Assembly: GCA_965219385.1 (NCBI GenBank)
Contig: CBDCNM010000002.1
Span: 1,978,936-2,042,935 of the forward strand
From: Candidatus Latescibacterota bacterium
Lineage (GTDB): Bacteria > Latescibacterota > UBA2968 > UBA8231
DNA length: 64,000 bases
Reading direction: 5' to 3'
In this document: positions 14,344 to 44,498 of the stretch, piece after piece
How the letters are laid out: each line of letters opens with the position of its first letter
Numbering within the stretch: the stretch's first letter is position 1
Notes under the pieces: model-generated
Told to the model about the DNA's origin: nothing
What the model saw: only the letters and a program-made list of their open reading frames with translations
Databases searched by the model: none
Program-made: the position numbers and the translations under genes

Positions 14344-14352
14344 ACTCTAGAA

Positions 14353-15347: not shown

Positions 15348-16535
15348 ATGCGCTGGATAAACGTACAGGAGATCTACGCCGACGGCAAACACAACGCCTG
15401 GCCCGACATCTGCCGCTGGCGGGACAAGTACTACGTCATCTTCAACTCCGGCGGCAAAGGCCATGCCAACGGCCACCGCATCTGCCTCCTCTCCTCGGCC
15501 GACGCAAAGCACTGGGAGAAAGAATTCGAAACCACCCCGGACGAATGGGCCCCCTCGGACGATGCCACCCGGGGCGCCACCTGCCCCAAATTGCTGCCCA
15601 CCCAGGATCGCCTCATCGCGATGTTCTACTATTACGCCAGAGGCGTCCCGGATATCACCGAGGCCGAAAAAACCCGGCTGAAAAACCACTGGCTGACCCT
15701 CGACGGCTCGGAGCCAAGCTTCGAGCGCTGGGTCGGCCACCACCAAACCTTGTTCCGTACCGCCCTGGCCTTTTCGGAAGACGGCCACACCTTCTCACCA
15801 CCGCAGCCCCTGCTCGAGCCGGGCTGGCGGGTCTGGCGCCCCCACACCTTTGCCGGCCGGCACTACGTCGTGGGGTATCGCTGCCATGGCCAGTCCTGGT
15901 CGATCGGCCCGGAACTGGAAGCCATGATCCCCAAGGCCGATTCCAGCGAGATGTTCGAGAGCGCCTCCCTCTTCACCTCCGAGGACGGCCTGGCGTGGAG
16001 CAAAATCAGCGCTATCGCCACGGACGACAACGACGAGCCCGACCTGGACTTCGACCAGGAAGGCCGCATCCTGGTGGTCAGCCGCACCGGCGCCTCCATG
16101 AGCCCGGATCGACCAGCCATGGCCTACCTGAGCCATCCCCCCTACACCGAGTGGCAAAGCCTGAAGTTGAGCGCGCCCCTCAACGCCCCGGCGGTCCGCC
16201 GCGTGGGCCAGCGCTGGGTGGTGGGAGGCCGCGCCCGGGTCGCGGGTTTCCAGGTGCCTTCCCGCTTTGCCCCCGACAGGGAAGTCGACCTCTTTGGTCC
16301 CACCCGGCTGTGGCTGCTCAACGATGAGACCGGCGAGCTGGAGGAGGGAACCACCCTGCCCAGCTGGGGCGACAGCGCCTACCCAGGCATCGAGCTGACG
16401 TCCGGGGGGGGTCTCCTGGTGGTGTACTACTCCTGCTCCCAGACCATCGACGAAAACCTCCTCATGGGACCGGGGCCGCTGCCCGGGAAGTACGCGCCGG
16501 CCTCCATCTATCTGGCCCGCGTCGTCATGGAATAA
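15348..16535 (+). CDS. BNR/Asp-box beta-propeller protein (sialidase-like)
   Basis: HNAWPD, SSADAKHW, FSEDGHTF and TSEDGLAW Asp boxes, GDSAYPG; GGAGGTG SD. Confidence 0.75.
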   Translation: MRWINVQEIYADGKHNAWPDICRWRDKYYVIFNSGGKGHANGHRICLLSSADAKHWEKEFETTPDEWAPSDDATRGATCPKLLPTQDRLIAMFYYYARGVPDITEAEKTRLKNHWLTLDGSEPSFERWVGHHQTLFRTALAFSEDGHTFSPPQPLLEPGWRVWRPHTFAGRHYVVGYRCHGQSWSIGPELEAMIPKADSSEMFESASLFTSEDGLAWSKISAIATDDNDEPDLDFDQEGRILVVSRTGASMSPDRPAMAYLSHPPYTEWQSLKLSAPLNAPAVRRVGQRWVVGGRARVAGFQVPSRFAPDREVDLFGPTRLWLLNDETGELEEGTTLPSWGDSAYPGIELTSGGGLLVVYYSCSQTIDENLLMGPGPLPGKYAPASIYLARVVME

Positions 16536-28260: not shown

Positions 28261-28342
28261 TGCTGGCGGCCAAGAGGCGAAAAGACGGCCCAAGACGCCG
28301 CCCCGGCTTGACCAACCCCAAAAGGCTCTTTATAATTCCTAA
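28261..28342 (+). mobile_element. IS91/ISCR-like oriIS end (82 bp, copy 1) with outward TTGACC-17-TATAAT promoter
   Basis: Identical to 35939-36020, which adjoins an IS91 transposase remnant. Confidence 0.8.
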
Positions 28343-28485
28343 AACCAGATAGACATACAGCATACGTAATTCGTGAAATTATCCGCCGCTTCAAATGTCA
28401 CTTTTTCCTTGTAAAAACAAATACTTATATCAATACATCAGATTTCACATCTCATTTAGGATTGATATAGAATTGAGGATATGAT

Positions 28486-31400
28486 ATGCCCGACGAAAAG
28501 ACACACAGTACGGAGAGCCTCCAGGGCCAGGATACTCGGTGGAGTAGTTTGATTGAGGAATTGCGTCAGTGGCCTTCCGATGCTCCAGAATGGGAAGTGG
28601 TCCAAGCGTTTATTGACCAAGTCCAGCTCGTGGCCAAGCAGAAGTGCCAAGAACGGGAAGAGGCGGGGCGACTTCAACTCCAGCAGGCTCTCGATCAATT
28701 GCGGGAGAATCACGAGGCCGATCTAGCGGGTTTCGGCTTCCGTATATCAGAATTAGCCAACTGGCAAGCGACTCGCTGTCCCATTGCTCGAACCGACGAA
28801 TGGACGGAGACCGCCAACGACCTATTGGAGCAACTGGCCCAATTCCGCCTCCTGAACCAGCAGGTTCCCCAAAATCTAAATTTCCAGGAGAGGCGCCAGC
28901 TCCGGGCGGACTCGGCGGCCGTGGATGATCGGATCAGCGCACTGTTGAAACAACTCAACGAAAATTTTTCCGTGACCGCCCCGGAGCCTTCACAGACTTT
29001 GGATGAGGATACCGAAGAGGATGACCAACCTTCCCCGGAACCGCCTAGTCCCAGACAAGGCCCTTCTAGTGAGCCCCCTGATTCCGACCAAGAGCAAAAA
29101 ACCGAAGAAGCCGTCAGCCCATCCGCAGAGATTCCCCAAAAGGAGTCCAGTCCCCCCGAGGAAGAAGCCAAGACTGAGTCCTTACCCCGGTCAGAAGAGC
29201 ACGAGCCAACGCACATCCAGACCGCCCCGCTTGAATCTCAGCCCCCTGCTGAAAAACCGCCGCATTTGCGCTTGGTCCGGGATGTGGCGGTCCTGTTGCA
29301 AGAAGACGACTCCGACGAACATTGGGTATCGTTGGGATGGAGCCTCTTGGCCGAAGGGGATTGGGCCGGGGCCTACTGGCTGGCTCGCTCTTTGACAGCA
29401 GCAGGCCGCGACGTACCGGTCGCCCCCGAATTGCTTGCCGTGCTTCAGGGCTCGCGCTGGTTGAAAGACGATACCGACAGTTGGGTCTCCGACATACGGC
29501 AAATTGCTTCGGAGTGGGCCCCACAGAATACTACTTCTGAGTCCGAACGGTTGCTGGGGTTGGCCGCGGCCCTGCGTCCTAGCTTGGTTGCCCCGTACAC
29601 CGGTCTGGTGGGCTGGCTCCCTCAAAAGGATGAAATCAATCCCGCGCTGGGTACCCTAGCCGATGCCATCCGCGCCTTTGCCTCATGGGGCTATTTCTTG
29701 CGACACGAAGATGTGGAGGGAGTAGAAGGCGATGCAACTCGCGAGCAGACCATTGAAGACACTGTTACACATGCCCGCCGCCTCTTGGATACTAATCAGG
29801 ACCGTAGGCTAAAAATGCTAAGGGCGACAAACGTACTGCGTCACTTGGTGGGCCAGAACGGCGATTTAAGCCTCCTACTCAAGCCGGTAATTGAAAATCG
29901 GGCCGACAAAATCAATCAGGTCCGACAGCGCATGAACAGTCTCAAGGAGCGCAGACAGATTGAAGAACGCATTCACCAGATTGATCATGAGCTGAAAAGT
30001 AGCTCCCCGGCCAATCAAATCACAGGATCTCCCCGTGACCAATTGATACGCAGTGTCGAAAAGGCGGTTGCTCTTGCCCGCGACTGGTGTTCCCTGATTG
30101 AGCAGGAACAGGCCATCCACCGCGAGGCCGACTGGTGGGTCGGTCATGTGGAAAATCTGCGCCGCCAAGTAGAGGATGTCCTCCCCAGCGTTTATACCGA
30201 ACTCAAGCGGATGCAGGCACAGGACCAATCCCAAGAAATAGCCGCTATAGGCCGCGTTCTGCAGCGGGTCATAGACCAGGTAAGAGGTATGCTGAACCTG
30301 GAGAAGGATCTGAAGAAGCAGTCCGATATTGAATATCTCGAGACATTGATGAAAGGTGGGAGTGCCTCGTTAGAGGAGGCTTTAACCCGTCGCTTATTGT
30401 GGATCCCCGAAATCCCCCTCAACGAGAATGGCCATCCTGAAGAGGCTCATGAGGCTGATATTGCCGGGGGCTTGAGTAAATCCCTGGCTGAGGAACGCTC
30501 GCTTAGAACAGCTTGTAATATGCGTATCGACGGACAGGATTTTCGCTTCACCGATCTAATCAGGGATGCGTTGGAAGAAGATGAAAGTCGCGGAGAGATC
30601 GAAAAGTTAAACGACAAGAATCTCGAAGGTGCCCGGGCGGCGCTAGCGGACGAGGTCGACGATGTGGGGAATGCCATCGAACAGGGGATGGTGGATGGGC
30701 TGCTCGTTGAAGAGGAACGCACCAATCTCAGTGGTGAATTGGAACTAGCGGCCACTGAAGATCCCTTGTACTTCAAACCGCTGTTCGCCCGGTTAGAGGC
30801 TATTTTAAAACAATTAGATGAAAAACGCACTACCCGGCTGCGAGAGTTGAAGGGGCAATGGAAGGAAATGCGGCAAAGCCTAGGGCAGGAGATACAAGGC
30901 GATAAAATCAAAATCGTGGATGTTTTTTTTCAAAAAGCATTGCGTCAGGAAGATACTAGACTGGTGGAAGAAGGCTTGGCCCACTTGCGGGAAGTTCGAG
31001 ATGGCGGGAGCGAATTGAAGAGTGAGTGGTTCACCCCACCCGAGGAGCGCGACATCTTCAAGGAGTTCCAAGAAGCTTTCCCTAGTATCGAATCAGGGCT
31101 TAGTAGCTTGGGGAATGTTGATCAACTAGCAGCCAAGGTGATTGAGCAAGGCCAAACCTGGGAGGGTGTGCAGTTTGGTACATTGTCCCAAACGCGGCGG
31201 GACGAGGCCGCCAAGGCACTTCGCTCTTGGCACCAGCTCAAACGCCGCCATGGACAGCAGGCCGAAAACCGTAGGCACGTCAAAGTCCTTTTCGAATACC
31301 TAGGGTTCCATCTGCCGCGGGGATCCGCCGTGAGTATAAAAAATAACGGCCGGGATTGGCTCCACTGCCAGGTGGATGCCTCGGCCAGCGACTTGGCTCG

Positions 31401-33822
31401 ACCTATCCCGCAGTTGGGCGCGCAAGCCAGCGGCTGCTACAATGTGGTGTGTTTCTGGGAACGGCCTGGAGCCGCCTCCATTGGAGCGTTCTTGCGCGAC
31501 TTGGGACTGGATACTCAAACGGTTATTATTTTCTTTCTTGGGCGATTGTCCGACCGTCGGCGGCTCGACTTAGCCGCCCGTGCCAGAGAACGGAAATTGG
31601 CTCTGGTGGTGCTAGATGAAATCCTGCTGGTATTTTTGGCCAGGTGTGATGATACCCGCCTTCCGGCTTTCCTCCGTTGTAGTCTGCCCTACGCTGCCCT
31701 CAATCCCTATACGCCGTTCCAGGCGGGAAATGTACCCCCCGAAATGTTCTACGGCCGAGACAGGATGGTCCGTCAGCTACAAGACGAGGGTAGCTGCATC
31801 GTATTCGGTGGGCGACAGTTGGGCAAATCCGCGCTGTTGCGCCAAGTGGAGCGCGAATTTCACCAGTCTGATCGCGAGCAATTCGCTTGGGTCGAGGACA
31901 TCAAGTTGTTGGGAGATCCCCTCACAGGTGAACAGCCCGCTCAACTTTGGATCAAGTTGCGCGAGGCCTTTAAGAAACACTCTCTAATAAAAGACACTGC
32001 AATGGGGAACACTCCTAACTATATCATCAAACACATTCAGGACGCAATGAATGTGTCGCCTAACCGGCGAGTTCTGGTCCTGTTCGACGAAGCCGACCAC
32101 TTTCTCGACGCCGATGCGCTGAGAAATTTCGAAGTGGTCGATAAATTGCGAACCTTGATGTATGATACTCGGTTGCGCTTCAGGGTGGTCTTTACCGGTC
32201 TGCATGGCGTCCAGCGCTTTAATAATATCGTCAACCAGCCTCTAGCCCATTTTGGCCAGAATTTACTGGTGGGACCCCTTGAAGCTGGGCCGGCCCGAAA
32301 ATTAGTGCGGGAGCCTCTGGAGACCTTGGGCTATCGGTTTGTCGACGAGACCACGGTGCTCAAAATCCTGTCCTACACCAATTATCATCCAGGTTTGATA
32401 CAGTACTTCTGCCACGAACTCGTGCGTCGGCTTCAAGGCAAAAAGCCCTTGTCAAGACCGCCCTATGAAGTAAGATCGGACGATGTGGAGGCGGTATATC
32501 GCTCCCACAAAGCTCGACAGGTCATTCGGGATCGGTTCGATTGGACCCTGGCACTGGATTCCCGGTACCAGTGCATCACTTGGGCCATGATCTACGAGCA
32601 AAGAGAAACACGTGATAGCTATGTCCGTTCATTCAGCGTAGTCAAACTGCTCGAACTGGCGAAAGGGTGGTGGTGTCAAGGCTTCAAGGAAGTCGATGTC
32701 CGATGGCTTGAGGGGTTGCTGGGAGAGATGGTTGGTCTGGGCATATTAGTGCGCAATTCAGAAAACCAGTACTTGCTGCGCAGTCCCAATCTGGTCCGCC
32801 TCATGGGTACCGAGGAACATATAGCGAACTGTCTGTTGGAGCTATCAGAGAAACCTCCGCCGACCCAATCCCAACCCGCCAGTCAGCATGTACTGCTAAA
32901 TGCCCCGAGAGATGCCCCGAACGTGTACAGTCCCTTGACGTTGGATCAGGAAAACCGTCTGCAACAAACTCGGCCGTCCGGAGTGAGTTTAGTATTTGGT
33001 TCCCAAGCATTGGGGCTGGATCTGTTGGATCAAGCCTTAAAGCGTATGGATGGCAGTGAACCTATTCCCCTACCCCAATTGATCCAAGCCGATCAGACTG
33101 TCTCATGGTTAGATTCCTACGCCGCTCGGAAGCAACGAGGGGTCGAGCAGTTATTGAGCTATGGCCGGCTCAGGGGCACAGGGGGCGATATGGCCCAATG
33201 CGTCTGGAAAGTATTGGAGATGTGCAAAGACTTTAACCAAAAGCGACGACGGCGTCTGCAGGTGGTTTTCATCCTCAACCCGGAGGCTGCCTGGTCCTGG
33301 CTGAGGGCGGATCGGCGTACCCATCTGGAAGACCGGGCTGACCTCATTTACCTGCGTCGCTGGGATGAAGTGGGAATCCAGCAACGGTTGAACCAAGCCG
33401 ATAAGGTGGATTCGTCCAATATCTGCCAGAAGGTGCTCAAAGCTACTGGAGGATGGCCCCTCATGCTGGACGAGCTTTTACGTCTGTGCAGCGACCAAGA
33501 CGATCCCGAGACTTATGGGGCTAACCCGTTGGCCAATGAGCTGGGCCGTCCGAGCTCGAAGACGGGACATAAGCTGTTACATCAGGCCGGACTGGATTCT
33601 CAGGCGGAGCCTTTCCGGGTATTAAAGACATTAGGGGAGTACGACAAAGTCTCAGAGGCGGATTTAGAGACTTTGGGGGATTTGATAGAAGGAGATCCGC
33701 CTCTTACTCCAGAGGACTGCAAAGTGGCTGTGGAGTTTCTGAACCGATTGGGATGTATTGAGAAGAGGAATGGGGAGTACCGCGTTGAGTCCGTCTTGGG
33801 TCGAGTAGCTGGCCTTCTATGA
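28486..33822 (+). CDS. Large STAND-like P-loop ATPase, 1778 aa; candidate defence sensor
   Basis: NPYTP...EMFYGR, Walker A GGRQLGKS, Walker B VLFDEAD, TNYHPGLIQ; degenerate second NTPase near the C-terminus (VFGSQALG, TGGWP); lower GC than flanks. Confidence 0.8.
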   Translation: MPDEKTHSTESLQGQDTRWSSLIEELRQWPSDAPEWEVVQAFIDQVQLVAKQKCQEREEAGRLQLQQALDQLRENHEADLAGFGFRISELANWQATRCPIARTDEWTETANDLLEQLAQFRLLNQQVPQNLNFQERRQLRADSAAVDDRISALLKQLNENFSVTAPEPSQTLDEDTEEDDQPSPEPPSPRQGPSSEPPDSDQEQKTEEAVSPSAEIPQKESSPPEEEAKTESLPRSEEHEPTHIQTAPLESQPPAEKPPHLRLVRDVAVLLQEDDSDEHWVSLGWSLLAEGDWAGAYWLARSLTAAGRDVPVAPELLAVLQGSRWLKDDTDSWVSDIRQIASEWAPQNTTSESERLLGLAAALRPSLVAPYTGLVGWLPQKDEINPALGTLADAIRAFASWGYFLRHEDVEGVEGDATREQTIEDTVTHARRLLDTNQDRRLKMLRATNVLRHLVGQNGDLSLLLKPVIENRADKINQVRQRMNSLKERRQIEERIHQIDHELKSSSPANQITGSPRDQLIRSVEKAVALARDWCSLIEQEQAIHREADWWVGHVENLRRQVEDVLPSVYTELKRMQAQDQSQEIAAIGRVLQRVIDQVRGMLNLEKDLKKQSDIEYLETLMKGGSASLEEALTRRLLWIPEIPLNENGHPEEAHEADIAGGLSKSLAEERSLRTACNMRIDGQDFRFTDLIRDALEEDESRGEIEKLNDKNLEGARAALADEVDDVGNAIEQGMVDGLLVEEERTNLSGELELAATEDPLYFKPLFARLEAILKQLDEKRTTRLRELKGQWKEMRQSLGQEIQGDKIKIVDVFFQKALRQEDTRLVEEGLAHLREVRDGGSELKSEWFTPPEERDIFKEFQEAFPSIESGLSSLGNVDQLAAKVIEQGQTWEGVQFGTLSQTRRDEAAKALRSWHQLKRRHGQQAENRRHVKVLFEYLGFHLPRGSAVSIKNNGRDWLHCQVDASASDLARPIPQLGAQASGCYNVVCFWERPGAASIGAFLRDLGLDTQTVIIFFLGRLSDRRRLDLAARARERKLALVVLDEILLVFLARCDDTRLPAFLRCSLPYAALNPYTPFQAGNVPPEMFYGRDRMVRQLQDEGSCIVFGGRQLGKSALLRQVEREFHQSDREQFAWVEDIKLLGDPLTGEQPAQLWIKLREAFKKHSLIKDTAMGNTPNYIIKHIQDAMNVSPNRRVLVLFDEADHFLDADALRNFEVVDKLRTLMYDTRLRFRVVFTGLHGVQRFNNIVNQPLAHFGQNLLVGPLEAGPARKLVREPLETLGYRFVDETTVLKILSYTNYHPGLIQYFCHELVRRLQGKKPLSRPPYEVRSDDVEAVYRSHKARQVIRDRFDWTLALDSRYQCITWAMIYEQRETRDSYVRSFSVVKLLELAKGWWCQGFKEVDVRWLEGLLGEMVGLGILVRNSENQYLLRSPNLVRLMGTEEHIANCLLELSEKPPPTQSQPASQHVLLNAPRDAPNVYSPLTLDQENRLQQTRPSGVSLVFGSQALGLDLLDQALKRMDGSEPIPLPQLIQADQTVSWLDSYAARKQRGVEQLLSYGRLRGTGGDMAQCVWKVLEMCKDFNQKRRRRLQVVFILNPEAAWSWLRADRRTHLEDRADLIYLRRWDEVGIQQRLNQADKVDSSNICQKVLKATGGWPLMLDELLRLCSDQDDPETYGANPLANELGRPSSKTGHKLLHQAGLDSQAEPFRVLKTLGEYDKVSEADLETLGDLIEGDPPLTPEDCKVAVEFLNRLGCIEKRNGEYRVESVLGRVAGLL

Positions 33823-35117
33823 GCTTGGGACTGGCTACCTCCCTGATGCAGATGCCCACTGCCCGGCAGCTATTGGACCAACTGCTGGACGACTTGCGGC
33901 TCGGCCGCAGTGTGTTGGGCTTGCTACCCGAAGGAGTTGATCCAAGCCTGCTACGGTCGGCTCTGTGGGACGGTCTGGGACACTGGCACTTGCATACCCA
34001 GGAGGTCTTCATGTCCCAGTTAGACGCCCAAATACCCGCGGCAGCTTTAGGACAAGCTCTGGGAGTGGATTGGGGTGCTTCCACCGTACCGCGCACAGTA
34101 GAGAATCTCCTAAGACAAGCGGACTTGCCCGAAATTCTGTTTCTCGATGGTTTTGATGAACTGACTAAAGAAGCCCGAGTTCAGTGGCTGCAATTTATGG
34201 TGCAGTGGGCTCAGGTATGCCAAGGCAGGTACTCCACCGACGAAGGTGGACCCGAGATCCCCCCGGCACTGTGTCTGCTGGCCCAAGCATCGAAGGTGCC
34301 TCACCCACCTCCCTTAACGAATGTGAAGCTGTCTATCCTGGTCTGGCGGGGTATCCCCACGACCTTGGAAATGCGGCTGTTGTGCCGATTGGCCTCCGAG
34401 CAGGATACTGCTCCCTTGAGCCGCTGGAAAGAGCATACGATTCCGGCCATTGCGGGTTCTGATTTGGACTTGAGCGATTACCTGTGGGCTCAGGAGTATC
34501 GTACTGGAGCCGAATTGGCACACATGCTGCGGGCCTTTGCTCAGGACCGCGGCTGGGACCAGGCCGAGATGGAGGCTTGGCTGGTGCGTAGCCTTCCCCG
34601 GGAAGCGAGGTCTTGGCTGGAGGGCTGGCCGTTGTCACCTGCTTTGTACCAAGCCTGGGCCCGGGGGATGGTACATTGGACCCCGGAATACGGTCTGGAA
34701 TGCCATAGTGCGGTCTTGGCCTTGTTGAATCGACAAGAAGCCTTAGACCATCGCTTGTGGCGAGGTCAGGCTGGGTTTCTCCTGCCCAAAATTGACGAAA
34801 CGCGATTGGCTTTGTGTGACCACCTGAACCGGTCCTATGGACAGGATTGGCCTTATAAGTGGCAAAAACCGGAGACAGACATAGAATGTCAGGAGGTAAA
34901 AGATACGCCCTTTGCCTGTCAGTGGGGGCATCTGGAATATCTGCTGCGGAAATGCCCGAATCTACAGATAGAACAGCGGTGGCTTTCCCTAGTGTGCCAG
35001 TCGCGGCAGCTCCGCAATGCCCTAGCCCATTACCGGCCTATAGCCCTGAGAGACTACGAAAAGTTCTGCGGGGCAGTAGAGCAGGCTATTATGGCAGGCT
35101 TGATGACCGCTTTGTGA
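33819..35117 (+). CDS. Degenerate P-loop-like protein with C-terminal HEPN-type RxxxxH motif
   Basis: ATGA overlap with the ATPase; ILFLDGFDEL Walker-B-like strand; LRNALAHY (RxxxxH at 35013-35030). Confidence 0.7.
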   Translation: MSLGLATSLMQMPTARQLLDQLLDDLRLGRSVLGLLPEGVDPSLLRSALWDGLGHWHLHTQEVFMSQLDAQIPAAALGQALGVDWGASTVPRTVENLLRQADLPEILFLDGFDELTKEARVQWLQFMVQWAQVCQGRYSTDEGGPEIPPALCLLAQASKVPHPPPLTNVKLSILVWRGIPTTLEMRLLCRLASEQDTAPLSRWKEHTIPAIAGSDLDLSDYLWAQEYRTGAELAHMLRAFAQDRGWDQAEMEAWLVRSLPREARSWLEGWPLSPALYQAWARGMVHWTPEYGLECHSAVLALLNRQEALDHRLWRGQAGFLLPKIDETRLALCDHLNRSYGQDWPYKWQKPETDIECQEVKDTPFACQWGHLEYLLRKCPNLQIEQRWLSLVCQSRQLRNALAHYRPIALRDYEKFCGAVEQAIMAGLMTAL

Positions 35118-35279
35118 TTGGGTAGCCTTGTTCGCCCTACTTCCTTCGATAATTGGGACCGAATTTTCCTCTTATTCTTCTTATTCCTCTTAGTCCACGA
35201 GGTCGCCGAGATACACAAGCTAAATTGAGCCAATCAGGGATGGAACGCCTACGCAACCTAATGCGGTACAACGACGCGG

Positions 35280-35415
35280 GCATCGCCTTATCGGCGGTGT
35301 TGTGGGTCTCGCGGATGGGCTCGGCGCAACCGGCGACGGGCAAGGACTGGCTGATAACCAGCTTTGCGGTGGTGGCCATTGTCGGCGGGACCGGGCTATC
35401 ATTTGCTGGGGGCGG
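35280..35415 (+). pseudogene. Fragment of a sugar ABC transporter permease (RbsC-like C-terminus)
   Basis: ALSAVLWVSRMGSAQPATGKDWLITSFAVVAIVGGTGL matches the SRxxSAQPxxGxxxxLxxIAAVVIGGT motif; boundaries approximate. Confidence 0.7.
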
Positions 35416-35455
35416 TCATCATCGTCCTTAGCGAGAAAGCCACCCCCTATAGCCC

Positions 35456-35940
35456 GGCATCTACGTCGACGGGGACGACGATCCGGTCTTCGTGCCCGCT
35501 CCGGCGCTCTCAGAAGAGGATGTCAAGCGAATCGTAGAGCCCACGGCACGCCGAATCATCCGACTCTGTGAGAAACGCAGACTCCTCAAGGACGGCCACA
35601 CCGATCCGCTCAGCGCCGAAGCACTCCTGCTCGCTACCATCGCGGCCGCCTCCATGCGTGGCCTCGTGGGCACACCGGAGAAAGAGTTGGTCAGCGGCTC
35701 AGGCGCGTGCTCAAAGACCCGGCCACAGGGATGCACACCGCGCCCCTGTGCTTTGCTTCGAGGGAATTCTCCCTCCACGCCGCCACCCAGATCAACGCCC
35801 GCAACTCCGCCGGCCTCGAACAACTCTGCCGCTAGGCAGCCCGGCTGCCGCTGGCTGTGGGGCGTCTCCAGCCCATCAACGACCAGCGTCTGTCCTTCGC
35901 CCTGCAAACACCTTAGTCGAACGACACCACCCACCTCCTG
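35456..35940 (+). pseudogene. IS91/ISCR family (rolling-circle) transposase remnant
   Basis: GIYVDG..PVFVPAPALSEEDVKRIVE; after a frameshift FSLHAATQINARNSAGLEQLCR*AARLPLA...LSFALQTP*SNDTTHLL (the LCRY Tyr and a Trp are mutated to TAG). Confidence 0.85.
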
Positions 35941-36020
35941 CTGGCGGCCAAGAGGCGAAAAGACGGCCCAAGACGCCGCCCCGGCTTGACCAACCCCAAA
36001 AGGCTCTTTATAATTCCTAA
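35939..36020 (+). mobile_element. IS91/ISCR-like oriIS end (82 bp, copy 2) with outward promoter
   Basis: Identical to 28261-28342; ends TTTATAATTCCTAA, resembling ISCR oriIS ends; 27 bp before the next ATG. Confidence 0.8.
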
Positions 36021-36047
36021 TACATCTGGGCCGGATGAATTGCAGCC

Positions 36048-37481
36048 ATGAATTTTGACAACTACGATCTTGATCCTTCTATCTATGACGAGATGTTCCT
36101 GCCGGACAGTGCTCCCCGGGAGCATTGCCGGCAACTCTACGAGACCCTGATCCGGCTCTCCACCGAGGAACTGAGCAACATCCAGGATCGTGTTACGCGC
36201 TCGTTTTCGAACGAGGGCATCACCTTCACGGTTTACGGGGACGACGAGGCCGACGAGCAGATCATCCCCATCGACTGCCTGCCCCGGGTGATGTCCGGCG
36301 GCGACTGGCGGCAGCTCGAGAGCGGCCTGACCCAGCGCCTCAAGGCCCTGAACCGCTTCCTGGAGGACGTCTACGGCGAGGCTCGCATCATCGAGGACGG
36401 CGTGATCCCCGTGGATATGGTGCGCGGCTGTCCTCAATACCGGACCGAGATGCGCGGCTTCTCGGCACCCCATGGGACCTGGGTCTCCATTTGCGGCACC
36501 GACCTGGTGCGCACCAGCGACGGCTTCCGTGTGCTCGAGGACAACCTGCGGGTCCCTTCGGGCGTATCCTACATGCTCGCAAACCGGAAGGCGGTCAAGG
36601 CGAGCCTGCGACGCCTCTATCGCAACTCCCGCGTGCAGGAGGTGGAGCACTACGGGAGAGTGTTGTTGGAAACCCTGCGGGACCTGGCCCCGAGGGGGCG
36701 CTCAGCCCCCTCCATCGCGCTGCTAACCCCCGGCGTGTACAACTCCGCCTTCTACGAGCACATGTTCCTGGCCCGCGAGATCGGCGCGGAGCTCGTGGAG
36801 GGCCGCGACCTGCTGGTCAACGACGGATTCGTCTACAGGCGCACCACCACGGGCCTGCGACGCGTCGACGTGGTGTACAGGCGCGTGGATGACGACTTCA
36901 TCGACCCGCTGGTCTTCCGTCCTGACTCCCTGCTCGGCGTACCAGGCCTGATGCACGCCTACAAGCTCGGAAACGTAGCCCTCGTGAACGCACCTGGAAC
37001 GGGCGTCGCGGACGACAAGAGCGTCTATGCCTACGTGCCGGACATGATCCGGTACTATCTGGCCGAGGAGCCGATCCTGGCCAACGTCGAGACCCGCCTC
37101 TGCCGCCGGCCGGAGGACCTGGAGTACACTCTGGACAACCTTCAGGACCTGGTGGTCAAGCGCGTGGGCGAATCCGGAGGGTACGGGATGCTGATCGGCC
37201 CCCACTCGTCGCCCGAAGAGCGCGAGGAGTACGCAACGCAAGTGCGCGCCAATCCGGCCGACTTCGTCTCGCAGCCGGTGCTCGCTCTATCCCGCACGCC
37301 CTGTCTGATTAAAGGGCGCTTCGAGCCCCGACACGTGGACCTTCGACCCTTCGTCCTCCACGGACGCCAGACCCGCATCGTGCCTGGGGCATTCTGCCGC
37401 GTCGCCCTGCGTCGAGGCAGCCTGGTGGTGAACTCCAGCCAGGGCGGGGGCGGCAAGGACTTCTGGGTACTGGAGGAGTGA
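36048..37481 (+). CDS. Circularly permuted type 2 ATP-grasp protein
   Basis: YDEM, GITFTVY, VLEDNLRVPSGVSYM, YRRVDDDFIDP, GVADDK, RHVDLRPF, VVNSSQGGGGKDFWV. Confidence 0.95.
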   Translation: MNFDNYDLDPSIYDEMFLPDSAPREHCRQLYETLIRLSTEELSNIQDRVTRSFSNEGITFTVYGDDEADEQIIPIDCLPRVMSGGDWRQLESGLTQRLKALNRFLEDVYGEARIIEDGVIPVDMVRGCPQYRTEMRGFSAPHGTWVSICGTDLVRTSDGFRVLEDNLRVPSGVSYMLANRKAVKASLRRLYRNSRVQEVEHYGRVLLETLRDLAPRGRSAPSIALLTPGVYNSAFYEHMFLAREIGAELVEGRDLLVNDGFVYRRTTTGLRRVDVVYRRVDDDFIDPLVFRPDSLLGVPGLMHAYKLGNVALVNAPGTGVADDKSVYAYVPDMIRYYLAEEPILANVETRLCRRPEDLEYTLDNLQDLVVKRVGESGGYGMLIGPHSSPEEREEYATQVRANPADFVSQPVLALSRTPCLIKGRFEPRHVDLRPFVLHGRQTRIVPGAFCRVALRRGSLVVNSSQGGGGKDFWVLEE

Positions 37482-38452
37482 ACAAAATGCTCTCACGCAG
37501 CGCGCAGGGCCTCTACTGGATGGGCCGCTACCTGGAGCGGGCCGAGCACCTATGCTGCCTCCTGCGATTGCAGACGGAAGCTTTGGTGGACCGCCCGGTC
37601 CGGGAGATCCACTTCGGTTGGAAGCGCATCTACGGCAGCATGAACCGACAGCCTCCCTTCGGCAGGCTCGAGCTCGACAGCGACGACTATACCCTGGCCG
37701 ACTCCTACACCCTTGCGGACGACCTCACGTTCGAGCGCTCGAACCCCGATTCCGTATGGAACTGCTTCGCGCTCGGCCGCGAGAACGCCCGGCAGGTGCG
37801 TCACTGCATCAGCGCAGAAATGTGGACCCGCCTGAACCTGGCCTACCTGCGGATACAAAAGCTGGACATCCAGGACATCTGGAGGATTTCCCCCGAGAGC
37901 TTCTACTCGGAAACGGCGGCGGAAATCGACACCTTCGCAGGCGTGGCCGAGTCCACCATGTACCGCGACGACGGCTGGAGCTTCATGCAGTTCGGGCGCC
38001 TCATCGAACGTGCCCAGCTCTTGGTCGCACTCCTCCTCTTTCAACTCACCACCGCCACAACGACCAAGGAGGACTCCGATGCCGACTGGGCGATCCTGCT
38101 GCGCATCTACCACGCTTTCGAAGCATACAGCCGCAGATACAGCGTCGAAGTGCAGCCGGGCCAGGTGCTGGACCTGCTCGTCACCGACCCTCTCTTGCCC
38201 AGCTCGCTCTGCCGGTCGTTCGATATGGCGGCAGCGAATCTCGCTTCCATCGGCCCCGGTTTGGACGCACTTTCCAGCGACGGGACGCAGAGACTGGTCG
38301 GCCGCCTGGGCGCCCTGGTCCATTACGACTGGCCGGACAGTGAAGACTACGAGAATCTCCTGAGACAAGCGGGGGAGTACTGCCGTGAGTTACACCGTGT
38401 CGTAACCTCAGCCTATTTCAATTACCCCATCGAAGACTCCCCCGGGCGTTGA
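37478..38452 (+). CDS. Alpha-E domain protein
   Basis: MLSRSAQGLYWMGRYLERAE, RENARQVR, GRLIERA. Confidence 0.93.
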   Translation: MNKMLSRSAQGLYWMGRYLERAEHLCCLLRLQTEALVDRPVREIHFGWKRIYGSMNRQPPFGRLELDSDDYTLADSYTLADDLTFERSNPDSVWNCFALGRENARQVRHCISAEMWTRLNLAYLRIQKLDIQDIWRISPESFYSETAAEIDTFAGVAESTMYRDDGWSFMQFGRLIERAQLLVALLLFQLTTATTTKEDSDADWAILLRIYHAFEAYSRRYSVEVQPGQVLDLLVTDPLLPSSLCRSFDMAAANLASIGPGLDALSSDGTQRLVGRLGALVHYDWPDSEDYENLLRQAGEYCRELHRVVTSAYFNYPIEDSPGR

Positions 38453-38456
38453 CATC

Positions 38457-39320
38457 GTGCACGATACAACCCGCTACGAGATCGAGCATATCTCCCGCTA
38501 CCTCTACGCATCACCGGTTCGGCACTGCGTGATGTCGCTCTGCATGAAGCCGCGCGACGACTCTGGCCAGCGGCTCCTGCGCTTTGAAGTCACGACGGAT
38601 CCCCCGGCCTCTCTGAACGGCGAGACGGACAGCTTCGGCAACACCAAGCACGTCCTCAACATCCACCGGGAGCACGTGGCCCTGGAGATCACTGCACGCT
38701 CCACAGTCGAAACGACCCCCTCCGTCCCGCCACCCGACTCATTGGGTACCGGTGCATGGGAAGAGATCGGCTCATGGATGGAGACTTTCACCCACTGGGA
38801 CTTCACACACGCCAGCGCGTTCGCCCGGCCCTCCCCCGCCCTCACCGCCTTCATCGAGCGGCTGGGCATCAGACAGGGAAACGATCCGCTGGAGACCCTG
38901 TTGCGGCTTTCCGACTCGCTCCACCACAGCTTCGAGTATGTCCCGGGGAGCACGTCGGCGGTCTCCCCCATCGACCATATCCTGGAGTCCGGCCGGGGGG
39001 TCTGCCAGGACTACGCCCACGTCATGATCGCCATTGCGCGCTCCTGGGGCGTGCCCGCCCGATACGTTTCAGGCTACGTGTTCGTCAACAAGGCCGGCGA
39101 GCATGCACCGGAGTCGGCTACCCACGCCTGGGTCGAATGCCTCCTGCCCGACCTGGGCTGGACCAGCTTCGACCCCACCAACTACAGCCTCCCCAACGAG
39201 CAGCACGTGCGCGTCGCGGTGGGCCGCGACTACCAAGACGTGTCCCCAACCCGCGGCGTCTTCATGGGTGGTGAAAAGAGTTCGCTCGAGGTCAACGTGC
39301 GGATGCGCTCAACGGAATAG
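38457..39320 (+). CDS. Transglutaminase family protein
   Basis: DSFGN, GVCQDYAH, ARYVSGY, THAWVE, FDPTN, GRDYQDVSP. Confidence 0.95.
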   Translation: MHDTTRYEIEHISRYLYASPVRHCVMSLCMKPRDDSGQRLLRFEVTTDPPASLNGETDSFGNTKHVLNIHREHVALEITARSTVETTPSVPPPDSLGTGAWEEIGSWMETFTHWDFTHASAFARPSPALTAFIERLGIRQGNDPLETLLRLSDSLHHSFEYVPGSTSAVSPIDHILESGRGVCQDYAHVMIAIARSWGVPARYVSGYVFVNKAGEHAPESATHAWVECLLPDLGWTSFDPTNYSLPNEQHVRVAVGRDYQDVSPTRGVFMGGEKSSLEVNVRMRSTE

Positions 39321-42350: not shown

Positions 42351-42398
42351 TTTCGTCAGTTCGGATACCACGTTGGTGTATAGGAGATAGCGGCTCAT
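42351..42398 (-). pseudogene. N-terminal stub of a VapC/PIN toxin
   Basis: MSRYLLYTNVVSELTK matches the PIN start YLLDTNVVSEL with D->Y; ATGA overlap with the Phd antitoxin. Confidence 0.75.
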
Positions 42399-42673
42399 TC
42401 GGCCTCCTGCTCATTCAATGGAATCTCCCGTCGGGACGCTCTATCCCCAGGAATCTCGAGATTCACGCCACGCGGCATGTGGTCGATCAACCACTGGCCA
42501 AGGGGTTTGCGCGGTGACAATTGAGCCTGCCACACGCGCTCCGGCACTACGACGAAAGACTTCCGCGCGCCAATGCGCTGCGGCCCTTCCTCTTCGGCAA
42601 GCCGCAGGATTTCAGACAGCCGCGCCTTGGCCTCGGCGACGGTCCAGACGCGGTGGGGCTTGGAATGGCCCAT
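42395..42673 (-). CDS. Phd/YefM family antitoxin
   Basis: WTVAEAKARLSEILRLAEEEGPQRIG; GGAGG SD. Confidence 0.88.
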   Translation of the reverse strand: MGHSKPHRVWTVAEAKARLSEILRLAEEEGPQRIGARKSFVVVPERVWQAQLSPRKPLGQWLIDHMPRGVNLEIPGDRASRREIPLNEQEAE

Positions 42674-43041
42674 GATCAAAGCCTCCATATAAATAAGAGT
42701 TGGTCCAAGACCACATTCTGAGCGGTGTTGCGATTCGGTCGGTTGATTGTCTGGATGATGCGCTCCGGCTTTTCGCAACGCAGCACTAGCCGGTACAACT
42801 CGACACCCACGGTGAGGCAGACGTCATCAACCATGCGCCGTTGCCTGCGCGAGAGCCGTCCGCGAATGGATTGCATCCGCAGCCAACCCAACACTTCGCC
42901 GTGGTCGGTGCGACGTAACATTATCGAGTATGACATTCAAATAAGTATTGCACGAGCGTCGCGGCAGAGCCGACGGCTAGCTTCGCGTGATGATAGAATT
43001 CTTAATTTGGAAATGGAGGATGACAAAGTCAAGCTCCCCCC

Positions 43042-43094
43042 CGCAACTCCCCCGACACAACTTCGGCAATAGCGCGTCCCGCTGAGTGGCGAGG
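43042..43094 (-). repeat. Duplicated hsdS 3' tail (near-identical to 44539-44592)
   Basis: CGCAACTCCCCCGACACAACTTCGGCAATAGCGCGTCCCGC vs CGCAACTCCCCCGACACCAACTTCGGCAACAGCGCGTCCCGC; encodes LATQRDALLPKL. Confidence 0.85.
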
Positions 43095-43216
43095 CTGGTG
43101 GCCTCTCTACGGTAGCCAACACTCCTTAAAGGTGAGAGCGGCGTCTTCTCGGTGGATTCGGTAAGGGGGGTCATGGCACCTCCTAGGGGGATGTACCAAT
43201 TCTCAGAGAAATCAGA

Positions 43217-44383
43217 TTACGACCCAATGGCCGCCAGAATGCGCTTCGTCTCTACATAGAGATATAGCTCGTCATCTTGGGTGATAAGTCGGGCATGCAT
43301 CGTGCATATACGGATTGGATAGAGTCGCTGGAACGATTCTTGCACCGAATTCTTGCGACCAAAAATTTCCTTGAACACTTCCCGCCAGTTATCATTGCGC
43401 GTGATGATTTGCACGTAATCCGTAAAATTCGCATAAGCGATCAGGGGCCATTCTTGCTCGCCGTTGTCTTTGGCCTTTTGTCGCTTTTCCAACCATTGAT
43501 CCCTTATTGGGCCGGGAATTCGGTGCTTGGTCCAGTTCGTACCGAAAGCTGCATTCATCCGTTCGTCAATGAATTTTCGTATCTGAGTCTCGAATCGCTG
43601 GAGCAAGTCATGGGCCTTGTTGGTGCGCTTGAAGTCAGCTTCTCTTTCAGTTTTTTCTGATGTTGGTTTGAAATTATAGGCGTCGTCTGCGGGCACCGTT
43701 TCCTCTAGACCAGCGTCGGTGATGATCTGTTCAAACGCATTGTTAGGAAACGTAGTCAAGTCTGGATTGAGGCCGCGTTTCGTATAGAAGGAATTCCGTG
43801 TAAGGGGATCGGTAAAAATTTGAGGGGGCCAGATAATTCTCTTGCGCCAATCGCCCAAATCAATCCGCAACGCATCCGTCAGATGTGAATCAAACGCTGG
43901 CATTGTGCGGAGTGCATATCCGATACCTTGCAACCCTGCAAAGCCGTTGATGGAACTAAATTTGTTTACTGTATCAAGCCAAGGCATGTTTATAGACTTC
44001 ATAGCGGACTCTATACCACGCTGAAGCTCGGAGTTTTGTTTCCAGTATCGCTCTGCCATATTCGATGCCATCTCCATATTCGATGCCATGCTATTCGCGA
44101 ATTCGTGCAGTAGTTTTGTAGCTTCTGCGATTTCCGGCAAGCGAAATTGCTTCTCTGTTGCCAGTATCTGGTCCTGCATCTGGATGAATTCTCCACCGAG
44201 TTGCGATGCCTGGATCAAAGAGGCAGTCCGGCGCATATCTTCTAAAGGAGCCAAAGCAGTGCGCACTAATTCTTGGTGTCTATTGATATCTTCAATGACT
44301 TTCATTTCCCTCAAAAGTGGTTCGTATGGGCGACGAAGTTTCTCTTGTGTCTTCAGAATCTTATTTATGTGGTCACTCTGCAT
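43217..44383 (-). CDS. Swt1-like HEPN domain protein (putative RNase)
   Basis: FETQIRKFIDERM...YANFTDYVQII..DNWREVF...IRICTMHAR (RxxxxH at 43295-43312); low GC. Confidence 0.8.
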   Translation of the reverse strand: MQSDHINKILKTQEKLRRPYEPLLREMKVIEDINRHQELVRTALAPLEDMRRTASLIQASQLGGEFIQMQDQILATEKQFRLPEIAEATKLLHEFANSMASNMEMASNMAERYWKQNSELQRGIESAMKSINMPWLDTVNKFSSINGFAGLQGIGYALRTMPAFDSHLTDALRIDLGDWRKRIIWPPQIFTDPLTRNSFYTKRGLNPDLTTFPNNAFEQIITDAGLEETVPADDAYNFKPTSEKTEREADFKRTNKAHDLLQRFETQIRKFIDERMNAAFGTNWTKHRIPGPIRDQWLEKRQKAKDNGEQEWPLIAYANFTDYVQIITRNDNWREVFKEIFGRKNSVQESFQRLYPIRICTMHARLITQDDELYLYVETKRILAAIGS

Positions 44384-44388
44384 TCTTA

Positions 44389-44460
44389 TTACCTCGCTTT
44401 AAAGATCGGAACCCACCGCCGATGAGCTTGAGCAACAACGTGTCACGAAAGGCGGTCGGC
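44389..44460 (-). repeat. Diverged second hsdS 3' tail remnant
   Basis: Translates TAFRDTLLLKLIGGGFRSLKAR*; compare HsdS ALRDALLPKLVSGELR. Confidence 0.65.
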
Positions 44461-44498
44461 TCGCCAATCTCATGGTGGTTCGTAAATCTCCCGTCGCA

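What the first reader, a model, noticed from the sequence alone, without database searches (positions are those of the whole stretch)
28486..35117. Candidate new anti-phage system: giant STAND-type ATPase coupled to a degenerate P-loop/HEPN effector
Seen: two genes overlapping by ATGA, visibly lower in GC than the flanks, bracketed by identical 82-bp IS ends. Gene 1 (1778 aa) has a helical N-terminus, a P/S/E-rich linker, long helical regions, an alpha/beta segment and an intact NTPase (NPY..P, FYGR, GGRQLGKS, VLFDEAD). It then has a second, apparently inactive NTPase module (VFGSQALG ... TGGWP). Gene 2 has a Walker-B-like strand (LFLDGFDE), no Walker A lysine, and ends in LRNALAHY. Known: STAND ATPases are sensors in Avs/NLR-like immunity, and RxxxxH is the HEPN RNase signature. 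Inference: a split sensor/effector system in which the ATPase activates a HEPN RNase through the inactive P-loop domains. I do not recognise this architecture as a named system.
Basis: partly seen in the sequence, partly recalled or inferred. Interest (0 to 1): 0.85.

Follow-up and report, generated by a model that had tools for sequence, protein, structure and literature searches.

The report
Giant STAND ATPase with HEPN partner
Two overlapping genes encode a giant ATP-switch protein and a smaller partner made of a dead copy of such a switch plus a likely RNA-cutting (HEPN) domain. The pair is conserved, mobile and widespread, is probably an untested anti-phage system, and its type was already predicted on paper in 2021.

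Summary
The genes and motifs are real: gene 1 is 28486-33822 (1778 aa) and gene 2 is 33819-35117 (432 aa), with an ATGA overlap and lower GC than the flanks. Gene 1 has an invariant Walker A/B STAND/ORC-like NTPase followed by a second, degenerate module. Gene 2 is a third STAND-like module without a P-loop lysine, plus an all-helical C-terminus. Its R399 and H404 are kept in 215 of 215 relatives, and 40 of 115 relatives weakly match Pfam HEPN_Swt1.

The pair is adjacent and co-directional in 13 of 13 related loci from five phyla. It is patchy within the phylum (13 of 168 genomes) and often lies beside RM, BREX or SIR2-HerA genes. PADLOC, NCBIfam and the PDB give no named match.

The "IS ends" are not shown to be IS ends. 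They are an 85-nt direct repeat carrying a promoter, with only two full copies in the genome. An ABC-permease remnant and an IS91-type transposase remnant after gene 2 show the cassette was moved here.

The closest thing in print is the computationally predicted "nSTAND2" two-gene operon (Kaur et al. 2021, PMC8195603). This family is not in that paper's list and differs in architecture. No experiment was found. Verdict: a real, probably defensive, new variant of a predicted kind.

The parts
28261..28345 (+). Left copy of the 85-nt direct repeat. It carries TTGACC-17-TATAAT (28308-28336) and is the likely promoter for gene 1.
28486..33822 (+). Gene 1, 1778 aa (P0001): giant STAND-like NTPase.
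28486..28965 (+). W36, F42 and W93 are invariant in 30 relatives. Function unknown.
28972..29271 (+). Gene 1 residues about 163-262: P/S/E-rich low-complexity linker, poorly conserved.
29269..31260 (+). Gene 1 residues about 262-925: long region not modelled here, with no family match. Inferred sensor or scaffold.
31258..31680 (+). Gene 1 residues about 925-1065: alpha/beta domain of unknown family. Conserved PIPQ(F/L)GSQ, C989, WERPG and VLDE (D1044 invariant).
31708..32865 (+). Gene 1 residues 1075-1460: active STAND/ORC-Cdc6-like module (nucleotide-binding, helical and winged-helix parts).
31807..31830 (+). Walker A, GGRQLGKS (residues 1108-1115). Invariant in 30 relatives.
32071..32097 (+). 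Walker B, VLVLFDEAD (residues 1196-1204). D1201, E1202, A1203 and D1204 are invariant.
32968..33819 (+). Gene 1 residues about 1495-1778: second, degenerate NTPase-like module (VFGSQALG in place of a P-loop, then TGGWP) ending in a winged-helix-like hairpin.
33819..35117 (+). Gene 2, 432 aa (P0002). Its start overlaps the gene 1 stop by ATGA.
33819..34733 (+). Gene 2 residues 1-305: STAND/ORC-like module with no Walker A. P37 stands at the P-loop position in 198 of 215 relatives.
34734..35114 (+). Gene 2 residues 306-432: all-helical, HEPN-like (Swt1-type) domain.
35013..35030 (+). Rx4H motif, RNALAH (R399 to H404).
35118..35440 (+). Two remnants of an ABC-transporter permease gene. In relatives this gene follows gene 2 intact. 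They are carried-over flank DNA.
35453..35935 (+). Decayed, frameshifted fragment related to IS91-family (Y2) transposase remnants found elsewhere in the genome.
35939..36023 (+). Right copy of the 85-nt repeat with the same promoter (35986-36014). It lies just upstream of the CP_ATPgrasp / Alpha-E / transglutaminase operon (36048-39320).

Best explanation
This is a conserved, horizontally mobile two-gene cassette that most likely works as an NLR-like anti-phage (abortive-infection) system.

Shown:
- Gene 1 has one catalytically intact STAND/ORC-type NTPase site followed by a degenerate second module.
- Gene 2 is a third, P-loop-less STAND-like module fused to a helical domain with an invariant Rx4H.
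- The genes are adjacent and usually overlap by 4 nt wherever the family was found.

Inferred:
- The three STAND-like modules would assemble into a hetero-complex, as in ORC or clamp loaders, where inactive subunits sit beside active ones.
- The roughly 900-residue N-terminal region of gene 1 would sense a phage cue.
- ATP binding at the single active site would drive a conformational change or oligomerisation. That would bring HEPN domains of gene 2 together into a composite RNase site.
- RNA cleavage would then arrest the infected cell.
For: - Pair conservation. A gene 1 relative lies directly upstream on the same strand in 13 of 13 loci: Latescibacterota x9, Armatimonadota, Blastocatellia, Binatia and Anaerolineae. 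In my ORF listing 10 of the 13 show a 4-nt overlap. A local HMM of the gene 2 family also finds the partner after giant ATPases on Salinibacter, Methylocystis and Bradyrhizobium plasmids, at E 3.6e-32, 2.4e-14 and 5.8e-12.
- Accessory, mobile behaviour. The pair is in 13 of 168 genomes of the phylum. In Latescibacterota it sits at two different junctions of a sugar ABC-transporter operon, or next to hsdM/hsdS. Here it carries permease and transposase remnants.
- Defence context. BrxL upstream and SIR2+HerA downstream in L014. Type ISP RM and NACHT-FGE proteins in L017. HsdM/S in L005, L011 and L013. In the window, an HEPN_Swt1 protein and a type I RM S subunit lie 8-11 kb away.
- Gene 1 enzyme. 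Walker A and B are invariant in 30 sequences. The model of residues 920-1778 has pLDDT 81.9. Foldseek gives 2qen at E 6e-8 with target-normalised TM-score (TMt) 0.61, Avs3 (8dgc_B) at E 7.6e-8, ORC/Cdc6, and tandem AAA+ proteins spanning both modules. nSTAND1 scores over its cut-off in 4 of 25 relatives.
- HEPN. R399, H404 and R329 are kept in 215 of 215 relatives, and N400 in 191 of 215, with T in 20. HEPN_Swt1 is matched by 40 of 115 members, best E 2e-5, while the next family is matched by 5 of 115. hhalign of the C-terminal profile against HEPN_Swt1 domains gives P 1.5e-4 on the motif helices; controls give 0.26 and 0.53.
- The family is large: 1369 representatives at E <= 0.001.
Against: - No experiment on this family was found, and no phage-challenge or toxicity data.
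- The HEPN fold itself was not tested.
- P0002 itself scores only 11.5 bits against HEPN_Swt1 (E 1.29 for one genome). The hhalign match covers 35 columns at 51.5% probability.
- Binding between the two proteins is unshown.
- 3 of the 9 neighbourhoods examined (L015, L016, L006) have no recognisable defence gene nearby. L007, L010 and L012 hold only an nSTAND1-type gene, and L008 and L009 hold only ABC-transporter genes by tblastn with 14 labelled proteins. L008-L013 were never scanned with Pfam.
- No relative was found on viral contigs.
Confidence: 0.6

Rival explanations
1. The cassette serves a mobile element rather than the host. It could be an addiction or exclusion module, or an AAA+ target-selection factor like TniB/TnsC/MuB, that travels with IS or transposon DNA. 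The HEPN domain would then act as a toxin or as a nucleic-acid binder.
For: - The cassette moves between sites and here sits next to an IS91-type transposase remnant.
- TniB profile hits occur in 9 of 25 gene 1 relatives, best E 6.6e-5. TnsC and MuB appear among the fold matches of gene 2.
- Copies occur on plasmids.
Against: - No intact transposase or integrase accompanies the pair in the flanks I scanned.
- TniB/TnsC similarity is general to the ORC/STAND-type AAA+ fold. STAND, ORC and NLR matches score as well or better.
- A protein of 1778-2000 aa with an invariant Rx4H partner is not what known transposition regulators look like.
Confidence: 0.12
2. It is a defence system, but the HEPN-like domain is not the killing enzyme. 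The effector would lie in gene 1 (the alpha/beta domain at residues 925-1065 or the N-terminal region). Gene 2 would be a nucleic-acid-sensing or regulatory subunit, as Kaur et al. proposed for inactive STAND modules.
For: - Gene 1 holds a conserved alpha/beta domain of unknown function with invariant D1044 in VLDE.
- Kaur et al. 2021 propose that inactive STAND domains act as nucleic-acid receptors (PMC8195603, section 19 passage).
- The giant ATPase also pairs with other partners, a helicase or proteins of about 940 aa.
Against: - R399 and H404 are kept in 215 of 215 relatives, which argues for catalysis.
- The alpha/beta domain shows no conserved nuclease-type triad. The position equivalent to D986 is N in this protein.
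Confidence: 0.15
3. It is a housekeeping or regulatory RNA-processing complex unrelated to conflict.
For: In several Latescibacterota genomes it lies inside a sugar ABC-transporter operon. Here it sits upstream of a metabolic operon.
Against: - It is patchy: 13 of 168 genomes in the phylum and 8 of 31 in one genus.
- It has different insertion points in close relatives, lower GC than the flanks and carried-over flank remnants.
- All of this is typical of accessory, horizontally moved genes.
Confidence: 0.05

Closest known systems
Predicted 'nSTAND2' mobile two-gene counter-invader operon (Kaur, Iyer, Burroughs, Aravind, eLife 2021, PMC8195603). I read passages of sections 15 and 19, the Fig. 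6 legend, and parts 18-19 of fig6-data1.
   Same: - Two co-directional genes, each with a STAND module.
- The second protein's NTP-binding motifs are eroded, and its dead module is fused to a HEPN RNase (or GT4) effector.
- It is described as mobile and was predicted by computation only.
   Different: - The published partner is nSTAND2+wHTH+TPRs+HEPN of about 530-640 aa (or +GT4 of about 750 aa), and all but one of the roughly 50 entries are Proteobacteria.
- Here the partner is 432 aa, with the winged helix running straight into the HEPN-like domain.
- Gene 1 here has two tandem modules and about 900 N-terminal residues.
- The hosts are Latescibacterota, Acidobacteriota, Chloroflexota, Armatimonadota, Binatia and Rhodothermota, plus Alphaproteobacteria (Methylocystis and Bradyrhizobium plasmids).
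- None of the locus tags, accessions or the architecture string I searched for is in that list.
- Sequence membership in nSTAND2 could not be tested, because no model was on hand.
Avs / AVAST antiviral STAND proteins (for example Avs3, PDB 8dgc).
   Same: A STAND NTPase core of similar fold (8dgc_B at Foldseek E 7.6e-8), giant size, defence-island neighbours and a nuclease-type effector logic.
   Different: - Avs proteins are usually one polypeptide with an N-terminal effector and a C-terminal TPR sensor.
- Here the effector is on a separate protein behind a dead STAND module, and the long region without a family match is N-terminal.
- No PADLOC Avs model matches.
ORC/Cdc6 and clamp-loader assemblies with inactive AAA+ subunits.
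   Same: They are the best fold matches of both proteins. They also show the principle of catalytically dead modules working beside active ones.
   Different: Those are replication factors. This is a resemblance of fold and of the inferred way of working only, and no orthology is implied.
Swt1-like HEPN domains (Pfam PF18731), common next to RM systems.
   Same: The R-N-x-x-A-H signature on the same helix-loop-helix, and weak profile matches in 40 of 115 family members.
   Different: P0002 is below the family's cut-off (11.5 against 27.5 bits). Its domain context is not in Pfam.
iSTAND ternary systems (MoxR-vWA-iSTAND; Kaur et al., eLife 2020, PMC7159879; passages read).
   Same: They use a catalytically inactive STAND module in a conflict system.
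   Different: No MoxR or vWA gene accompanies this pair in any flank I scanned. The iSTAND Pfam hits fall on the active module of gene 1 relatives, at E 0.012-0.088.

Membership tests
STAND NTPase (gene 1) | Intact, conserved Walker A (GxxxxGK[ST]) and Walker B (hhhhDE). | tested here: met
   G1108 to S1115 and D1201 to D1204 are invariant in 30 sequences.
STAND NTPase (gene 1) | Match to a curated STAND profile above its cut-off. | tested here: inconclusive
   P0001 scores 21.1 bits on nSTAND6 against a cut-off of 27.7, and 33.4 bits on AAA_22, over its cut-off. nSTAND1 is over its cut-off in 4 of 25 relatives. AAA_16 is hit by 25 of 25 at E <= 0.1.
STAND NTPase (gene 1) | Nucleotide-binding, helical and winged-helix fold like solved STAND or ORC/Cdc6 proteins. 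| tested here: met
   Model pLDDT 81.9. Foldseek: 2qen E 6e-8 with TMt 0.61, 2fna TMt 0.57, Avs3 8dgc_B E 7.6e-8.
STAND NTPase (gene 1) | C-terminal repeat sensor (TPR, WD40 or LRR). | tested here: not met
   The C-terminus is a second degenerate NTPase-like module. No repeat family appears in Pfam.
HEPN RNase (gene 2 C-terminus) | Conserved Rx4-6H with a polar residue after R. | tested here: met
   R399 in 215 of 215 and H404 in 215 of 215. N400 in 191 of 215, with T in 20.
HEPN RNase (gene 2 C-terminus) | Profile match to a HEPN family. | tested here: inconclusive
   HEPN_Swt1 is hit by 40 of 115 relatives at E <= 1, best 2e-5. P0002 itself scores 11.5 bits, E 1.29 for one genome. hhalign gives P 1.5e-4 over 35 columns, with controls at 0.26 and 0.53.
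HEPN RNase (gene 2 C-terminus) | Four-helix HEPN fold. | tested here: inconclusive
   Residues 306-425 are all-helical in the model. The fold searches only covered residues 1-305, and the domain was not folded alone.
HEPN RNase (gene 2 C-terminus) | RNase activity. | not testable with these tools
   Needs biochemistry.
nSTAND2 two-gene operon (Kaur et al. 2021) | Two adjacent co-directional genes, each with a STAND module. | tested here: met
nSTAND2 two-gene operon (Kaur et al. 2021) | NTP-binding motifs eroded in the second protein. | tested here: met
   There is no GK[ST] at the P-loop position, where P37 stands in 198 of 215. The Walker B acidic position 110 is D or E in 102 of 215.
nSTAND2 two-gene operon (Kaur et al. 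2021) | Inactive module fused to a HEPN or GT4 effector, with TPRs before HEPN in the published HEPN forms. | tested here: inconclusive
   A HEPN-like domain is present. No TPR segment exists: the protein is 432 aa and the winged helix runs into the HEPN-like helices. Published forms are 530-640 aa.
nSTAND2 two-gene operon (Kaur et al. 2021) | Sequence membership in the nSTAND2 family, or a listing in the paper's source data. | tested here: inconclusive
   The architecture string, two locus-tag prefixes and three accessions are not found in fig6-data1. No nSTAND2 profile was on hand. tblastn of P0002 against plasmids found only Salinibacter.
Avs / AVAST | Match to Avs models, and a single-protein effector-STAND-TPR layout. 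| tested here: not met
   PADLOC gives no Avs hit for P0001 or P0002, for 115 gene 2 relatives, or for 25 gene 1 relatives. The layout differs.
iSTAND ternary system | MoxR and vWA genes in the operon. | tested here: not met
   None in the window flanks or in the 30 flanking proteins of six loci that I scanned.
Composite transposon / IS-bracketed element | The bracketing repeats are ends of a multicopy IS. | tested here: not met
   They are direct, not inverted. There are two full copies in 5.8 Mb. The repeat carries a promoter that recurs before other genes.

The most novel reading that the evidence does not exclude
A new class of bacterial NLR-like immune machine: one live ATPase site commands two dead STAND modules. 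One dead module is in the same chain and one is on a separate protein that carries a HEPN RNase. The assembly would be an asymmetric, ORC-like hetero-complex rather than a homo-oligomeric resistosome. The family is spread over at least seven phyla and about 1400 sequence clusters, and the same giant ATPase chassis can swap partners (HEPN protein, helicase, unknown proteins of about 940 aa).
Probability: 0.35. Interest if true: 0.75.

Novelty: new variant of a known kind. Interest (0 to 1): 0.5.

Why it matters
STAND/NLR proteins are central to immunity in bacteria, plants and animals. The known bacterial examples are mostly single proteins that form homo-oligomers.

This family would put the effector on a separate subunit that docks through a dead copy of the switch domain. 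That echoes sensor/helper NLR pairs and the active and inactive subunits of ORC.

The family is large (1369 representatives at 50% identity) and spans many little-studied phyla. I found no experimental test of it. A single heterologous phage-challenge experiment with three point mutants would show whether a predicted class of immune system is real.

Tried and rejected
- Complex prediction of gene 1 residues 1460-1778 with gene 2 was not available. The queue was full twice, so binding is untested.
- hhalign of the gene 2 family against the gene 1 family found no similarity (E 0.27). The dead module of gene 2 is therefore not detectably a copy of a gene 1 module at sequence level.
- Profile searches of both families against PDB sequences found nothing.
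- The Atlas gave only leads for gene 2, including a "putative Swt1-like HEPN" cluster. It gave nothing for gene 1 residues 262-925.
- PADLOC and NCBIfam gave no meaningful hit.
- A search with gene 2 residues 300-432 alone found only the same family and no other architecture. Longer or fused forms were not searched.
- The viral-contig scan found no relative. Its peptide patterns only reach close relatives.
- tblastn of the transposase-like remnant against plasmids gave no match. Pfam does not hit the remnant itself, so its identity rests on paralogous fragments.
- Literature searches found no named or tested system of this architecture. DARNA (outline read) is an unrelated single protein.
- I rejected the reading that the 85-nt repeats are IS ends.
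- The search for related loci with the 29-sequence alignment failed for lack of a conserved stretch. It worked with 14 closer sequences, so the locus sample is biased toward close relatives.


Full report
**Observation.** The window holds two + strand ORFs, 28486-33822 (1778 aa, P0001) and 33819-35117 (432 aa, P0002). The gene 2 ATG overlaps the gene 1 TGA as ATGA. GC is 0.51-0.58 over the pair and 0.61-0.67 on both sides.

The bracketing repeat is real but differs from the description. It is an 85-nt direct repeat (28261-28345 and 35939-36023) with one mismatch.

**The repeat and the insert.** The own genome (5.81 Mb, 2 contigs) has only these two full copies, plus a 54-nt partial copy inside the window and one weak match elsewhere. 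Each full copy carries the best sigma-70-like site of the region, TTGACC-17-TATAAT, 11 of 12. The partial copy at about 49390-49448 (-) has the same hexamers in front of another gene. The right copy lies directly upstream of a CP_ATPgrasp / Alpha-E / transglutaminase operon. So the repeat is a duplicated promoter-bearing segment, not a demonstrated IS end.

Between gene 2 and the right copy lie two kinds of debris.
- Two pieces (about 35118-35440) of an ABC-transporter permease gene. They align at 76-93% DNA identity with the intact permease gene that follows gene 2 in related genomes, with about 600 bp missing in between.
- A frameshifted fragment at 35453-35935. Its paralogues elsewhere in the genome adjoin a Pfam Y2_Tnp (IS91-family transposase) match, E 1e-5 and over the cut-off for one of them.

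Upstream, similarity to the related loci starts only about 25 nt before the gene 1 ATG. The cassette was therefore brought here together with its old downstream flank, plausibly by IS91-type mobilisation. How the promoter segment was duplicated is unexplained.

**Gene 1.**
- Pfam gives AAA_22 over its cut-off (residues 1100-1242, E 6.3e-8) and nSTAND6 under its cut-off.
- Among 25 relatives, AAA_16 is hit by 25, AAA_22 by 24, ATPase_2 by 16, TniB by 9, nSTAND6 by 6 and nSTAND1 by 4, the last over its cut-off.
- In a 30-sequence alignment (36-74% identity to P0001), the Walker A GGRQLGKS, the Walker B DEAD and the upstream P-Y-x-P ... G-R motif are invariant.
- A model of residues 920-1778 has pLDDT 81.9 and pTM 0.63. 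It matches the archaeal Walker-type ATPases 2qen (E 6e-8, TMt 0.61) and 2fna, Avs3 bound to terminase (8dgc_B, E 7.6e-8) and ORC/Cdc6.
- Over about 700 columns it also matches tandem AAA+ proteins such as p97 and ClpC, though at low TM-scores. This fits a second NTPase-like module at residues about 1495-1778.
- That second module has VFGSQALG in place of a P-loop and an invariant TGGW.
- Before the active module lies a conserved alpha/beta domain (residues about 925-1065; PIPQFGSQ, WERPG, VLDE) with no family match.
- Before that come about 900 residues that I did not model and a P/S/E-rich linker, with no match in Pfam, the PDB or the Atlas.

**Gene 2.**
- Pfam, PADLOC and NCBIfam give nothing for P0002.
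- The model is confident, with pLDDT 88.7 and pTM 0.85.
- The P-loop position has no GK[ST]; a proline stands there in 198 of 215 relatives. The Walker-B-like acidic positions vary, with position 110 D or E in 102 of 215.
- Residues 306-425 are all-helical.
- R399 and H404 of LRNALAHY, and R329, are kept in 215 of 215 relatives that go down to about 26% identity. N400 is N in 191 and T in 20.
- Scanning 115 family members one by one against Pfam, 40 hit HEPN_Swt1 (best E 2e-5). The next most frequent family is hit by 5. Four other HEPN-type families (by my recollection of the HEPN classification) get 1-2 hits each.
- P0002 itself aligns to positions 18-104 of the 115-position HEPN_Swt1 model at only 11.5 bits.
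- hhalign of the C-terminal profile against 16 HEPN_Swt1 domains taken from genomes of the same phylum aligns the motif helix and the next helix at P 1.5e-4 and probability 51.5%. The other two thirds of the protein give P 0.26 and 0.53.

The HEPN assignment is therefore well supported by sequence.

**Conservation and context.**
- The gene 2 family has 85 word-indexed relatives. It has 1369 representatives at 50% identity with E <= 0.001, of which 408 are at <= 1e-30. The best 150 are nearly all about 385-460 aa.
- Gene 1 has 347 listed relatives.
- In 13 of 13 loci recovered with gene 2 patterns, a gene 1 relative lies directly upstream on the same strand. These loci are 9 Latescibacterota and one each of Armatimonadota, Blastocatellia, Binatia and Anaerolineae. 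Three of them are broken or split: L013 by an insert of about 1.2 kb, L007 by a frame change, and L016 into two ORFs.
- The locus sample is biased toward close relatives by the search patterns.
- Within the phylum the pair is patchy: 13 of 168 genomes, 8 of 31 in one genus, 3 of 15 in another and 1 of 21 in a third.
- Neighbours, from a Pfam scan of 30 flanking proteins of six loci plus tblastn with 14 labelled proteins:
  - L014: BrxL upstream, SIR2 and HerA downstream.
  - L017: a type ISP RM enzyme upstream and two NACHT-FGE proteins downstream.
  - L005, L011, L013: hsdM/hsdS downstream.
  - L006 to L010 and L012: inside a sugar ABC-transporter operon at two different junctions, with an nSTAND1 gene as a further insert in L007, L010 and L012.
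  - L015, L016: no defence gene recognised.
  - The window itself: an HEPN_Swt1 protein and a type I RM specificity/nucleotidyltransferase protein at 43217-46118.
- On plasmids, a local HMM of the gene 2 family finds partners after giant ATPases in three hosts:
  - Salinibacter: 1927 aa + 377 aa, E 3.6e-32.
  - Methylocystis: a 378-aa frame, E 2.4e-14, of which the record annotates only the last 197 aa.
  - Bradyrhizobium: 3100 aa + 549 aa, E 5.8e-12.
- The same NTPase module occurs in 26 plasmid records. In three of those I inspected it has other downstream partners, a helicase in Brasilonema and ORFs of about 940 aa in Burkholderia and Cupriavidus.

**Mechanism.** Shown: a strictly linked, usually overlapping gene pair; one live NTPase site; two dead STAND-like modules; and an invariant Rx4H in a HEPN-like domain. 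The pair is accessory and mobile and is often found in defence neighbourhoods.

Inferred: the modules assemble into a hetero-complex; the N-terminal region of gene 1 senses a phage cue; ATP-dependent rearrangement or oligomerisation pairs HEPN domains into an active RNase; and RNA cleavage aborts infection. I put this at 0.6. The rivals are set out in their own section: a function for a mobile element, an effector located in gene 1 with gene 2 as sensor, and a housekeeping role.

**Comparison with what is known.**
- No named system matched.
- Earlier notes of this scan pointed to Kaur et al. 2021. I checked this in the paper. [quoted passage not shown] One has eroded NTP-binding motifs, and that inactive module is fused most commonly to GT4 or a HEPN RNase.
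- The paper's source data list about 50 entries. [quoted passage not shown]
- The architecture without TPRs, the two locus-tag prefixes and the three plasmid protein accessions of this family are not in that file.
- So the kind was predicted in print, while this family is an unlisted and differently built variant. Whether it belongs to nSTAND2 by sequence could not be tested.
- I found no experimental work.

**Verdict.** It is a new variant of a computationally predicted kind. It is untested and widespread, and this scan has met it before in other genomes.

Noticed in passing
window 35118-35440: Two remnants of an ABC-transporter permease gene directly after gene 2. They are 76-93% identical in DNA to the intact permease that follows gene 2 in L006, L009 and L010, with about 600 bp deleted between them. 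This shows the cassette was moved here from an ABC-operon context.
   Followed up: yes
window 35453-35935: A frameshifted fragment whose paralogues elsewhere in the genome (L057, L058) adjoin a Y2_Tnp (IS91-family transposase) Pfam match. It breaks off exactly where the right 85-nt repeat begins.
   Followed up: partly
window 28261-28345, 35939-36023 and about 49390-49448 (-): A recurring promoter-bearing element (GACGCC..GGCTTGACCAACCCC...TTTATAATTCCTA) that also holds a terminator-like hairpin on the minus strand. Why an 85-nt version is duplicated on both sides of the insert is unexplained.
   Followed up: partly
L006, L007, L008, L009, L010, L012 (about 2000-15500 in each): A sugar ABC-transporter operon (binding protein, ATPase, permease) of one Latescibacterota genus acts as an insertion hotspot. 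The pair sits at either of two gene junctions. A separate 395-aa nSTAND1/AAA_16 gene is inserted between ATPase and permease in L007 and L012, and lies beside the pair in L010.
   Followed up: partly
window 42395-46118 (-): A second conflict-type cluster: a PhdYeFM-like antitoxin ORF (weak hit), a 388-aa protein with a Swt1-like HEPN domain, and a 539-aa protein combining a nucleotidyltransferase domain with type I RM specificity domains.
   Followed up: no
L013 6134-7314; L007 about 6520: The gene 1 relative in L013 is interrupted by an insert of about 1.2 kb holding a 297-aa ORF. The one in L007 changes frame near 6520. Both are broken copies of the system.
   Followed up: no
L018, L023-L051 (match at about 1501-1842 of each): Proteins of about 1110-1135 aa with an N-terminal Swt1-like HEPN domain account for most HEPN_Swt1 matches, which occur in 41 of 168 genomes of the phylum. 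One is in the own genome (G000:C2:3310179-3310520). Their function was not examined.
   Followed up: no
L053, L055, L060, L061: The same NTPase module (27-39% identity over about 380 aa) sits in other giant plasmid proteins with other downstream partners. Examples are a 3100-aa 'RNaseH domain-containing protein' (Bradyrhizobium), a 2289-aa protein followed by a helicase (Brasilonema), and 2200-2300-aa ORFs followed by ORFs of about 940 aa (Burkholderia, Cupriavidus).
   Followed up: partly
L054 9989-11122: On Methylocystis plasmid pMpar-1 the partner gene seems annotated too short. The record lists 10532-11125 (197 aa), but an open frame of 378 aa from 9989 matches the gene 2 family HMM at both ends.
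   Followed up: partly
window 31258-31680 (gene 1 residues 925-1065): A conserved alpha/beta domain of unknown family just before the NTPase. Strand and helix order is beta-beta-alpha-beta-alpha-beta-alpha-beta. Its motifs are PIPQFGSQ, C989, WERPG and VLDE. Its fold was not searched on its own.
   Followed up: partly
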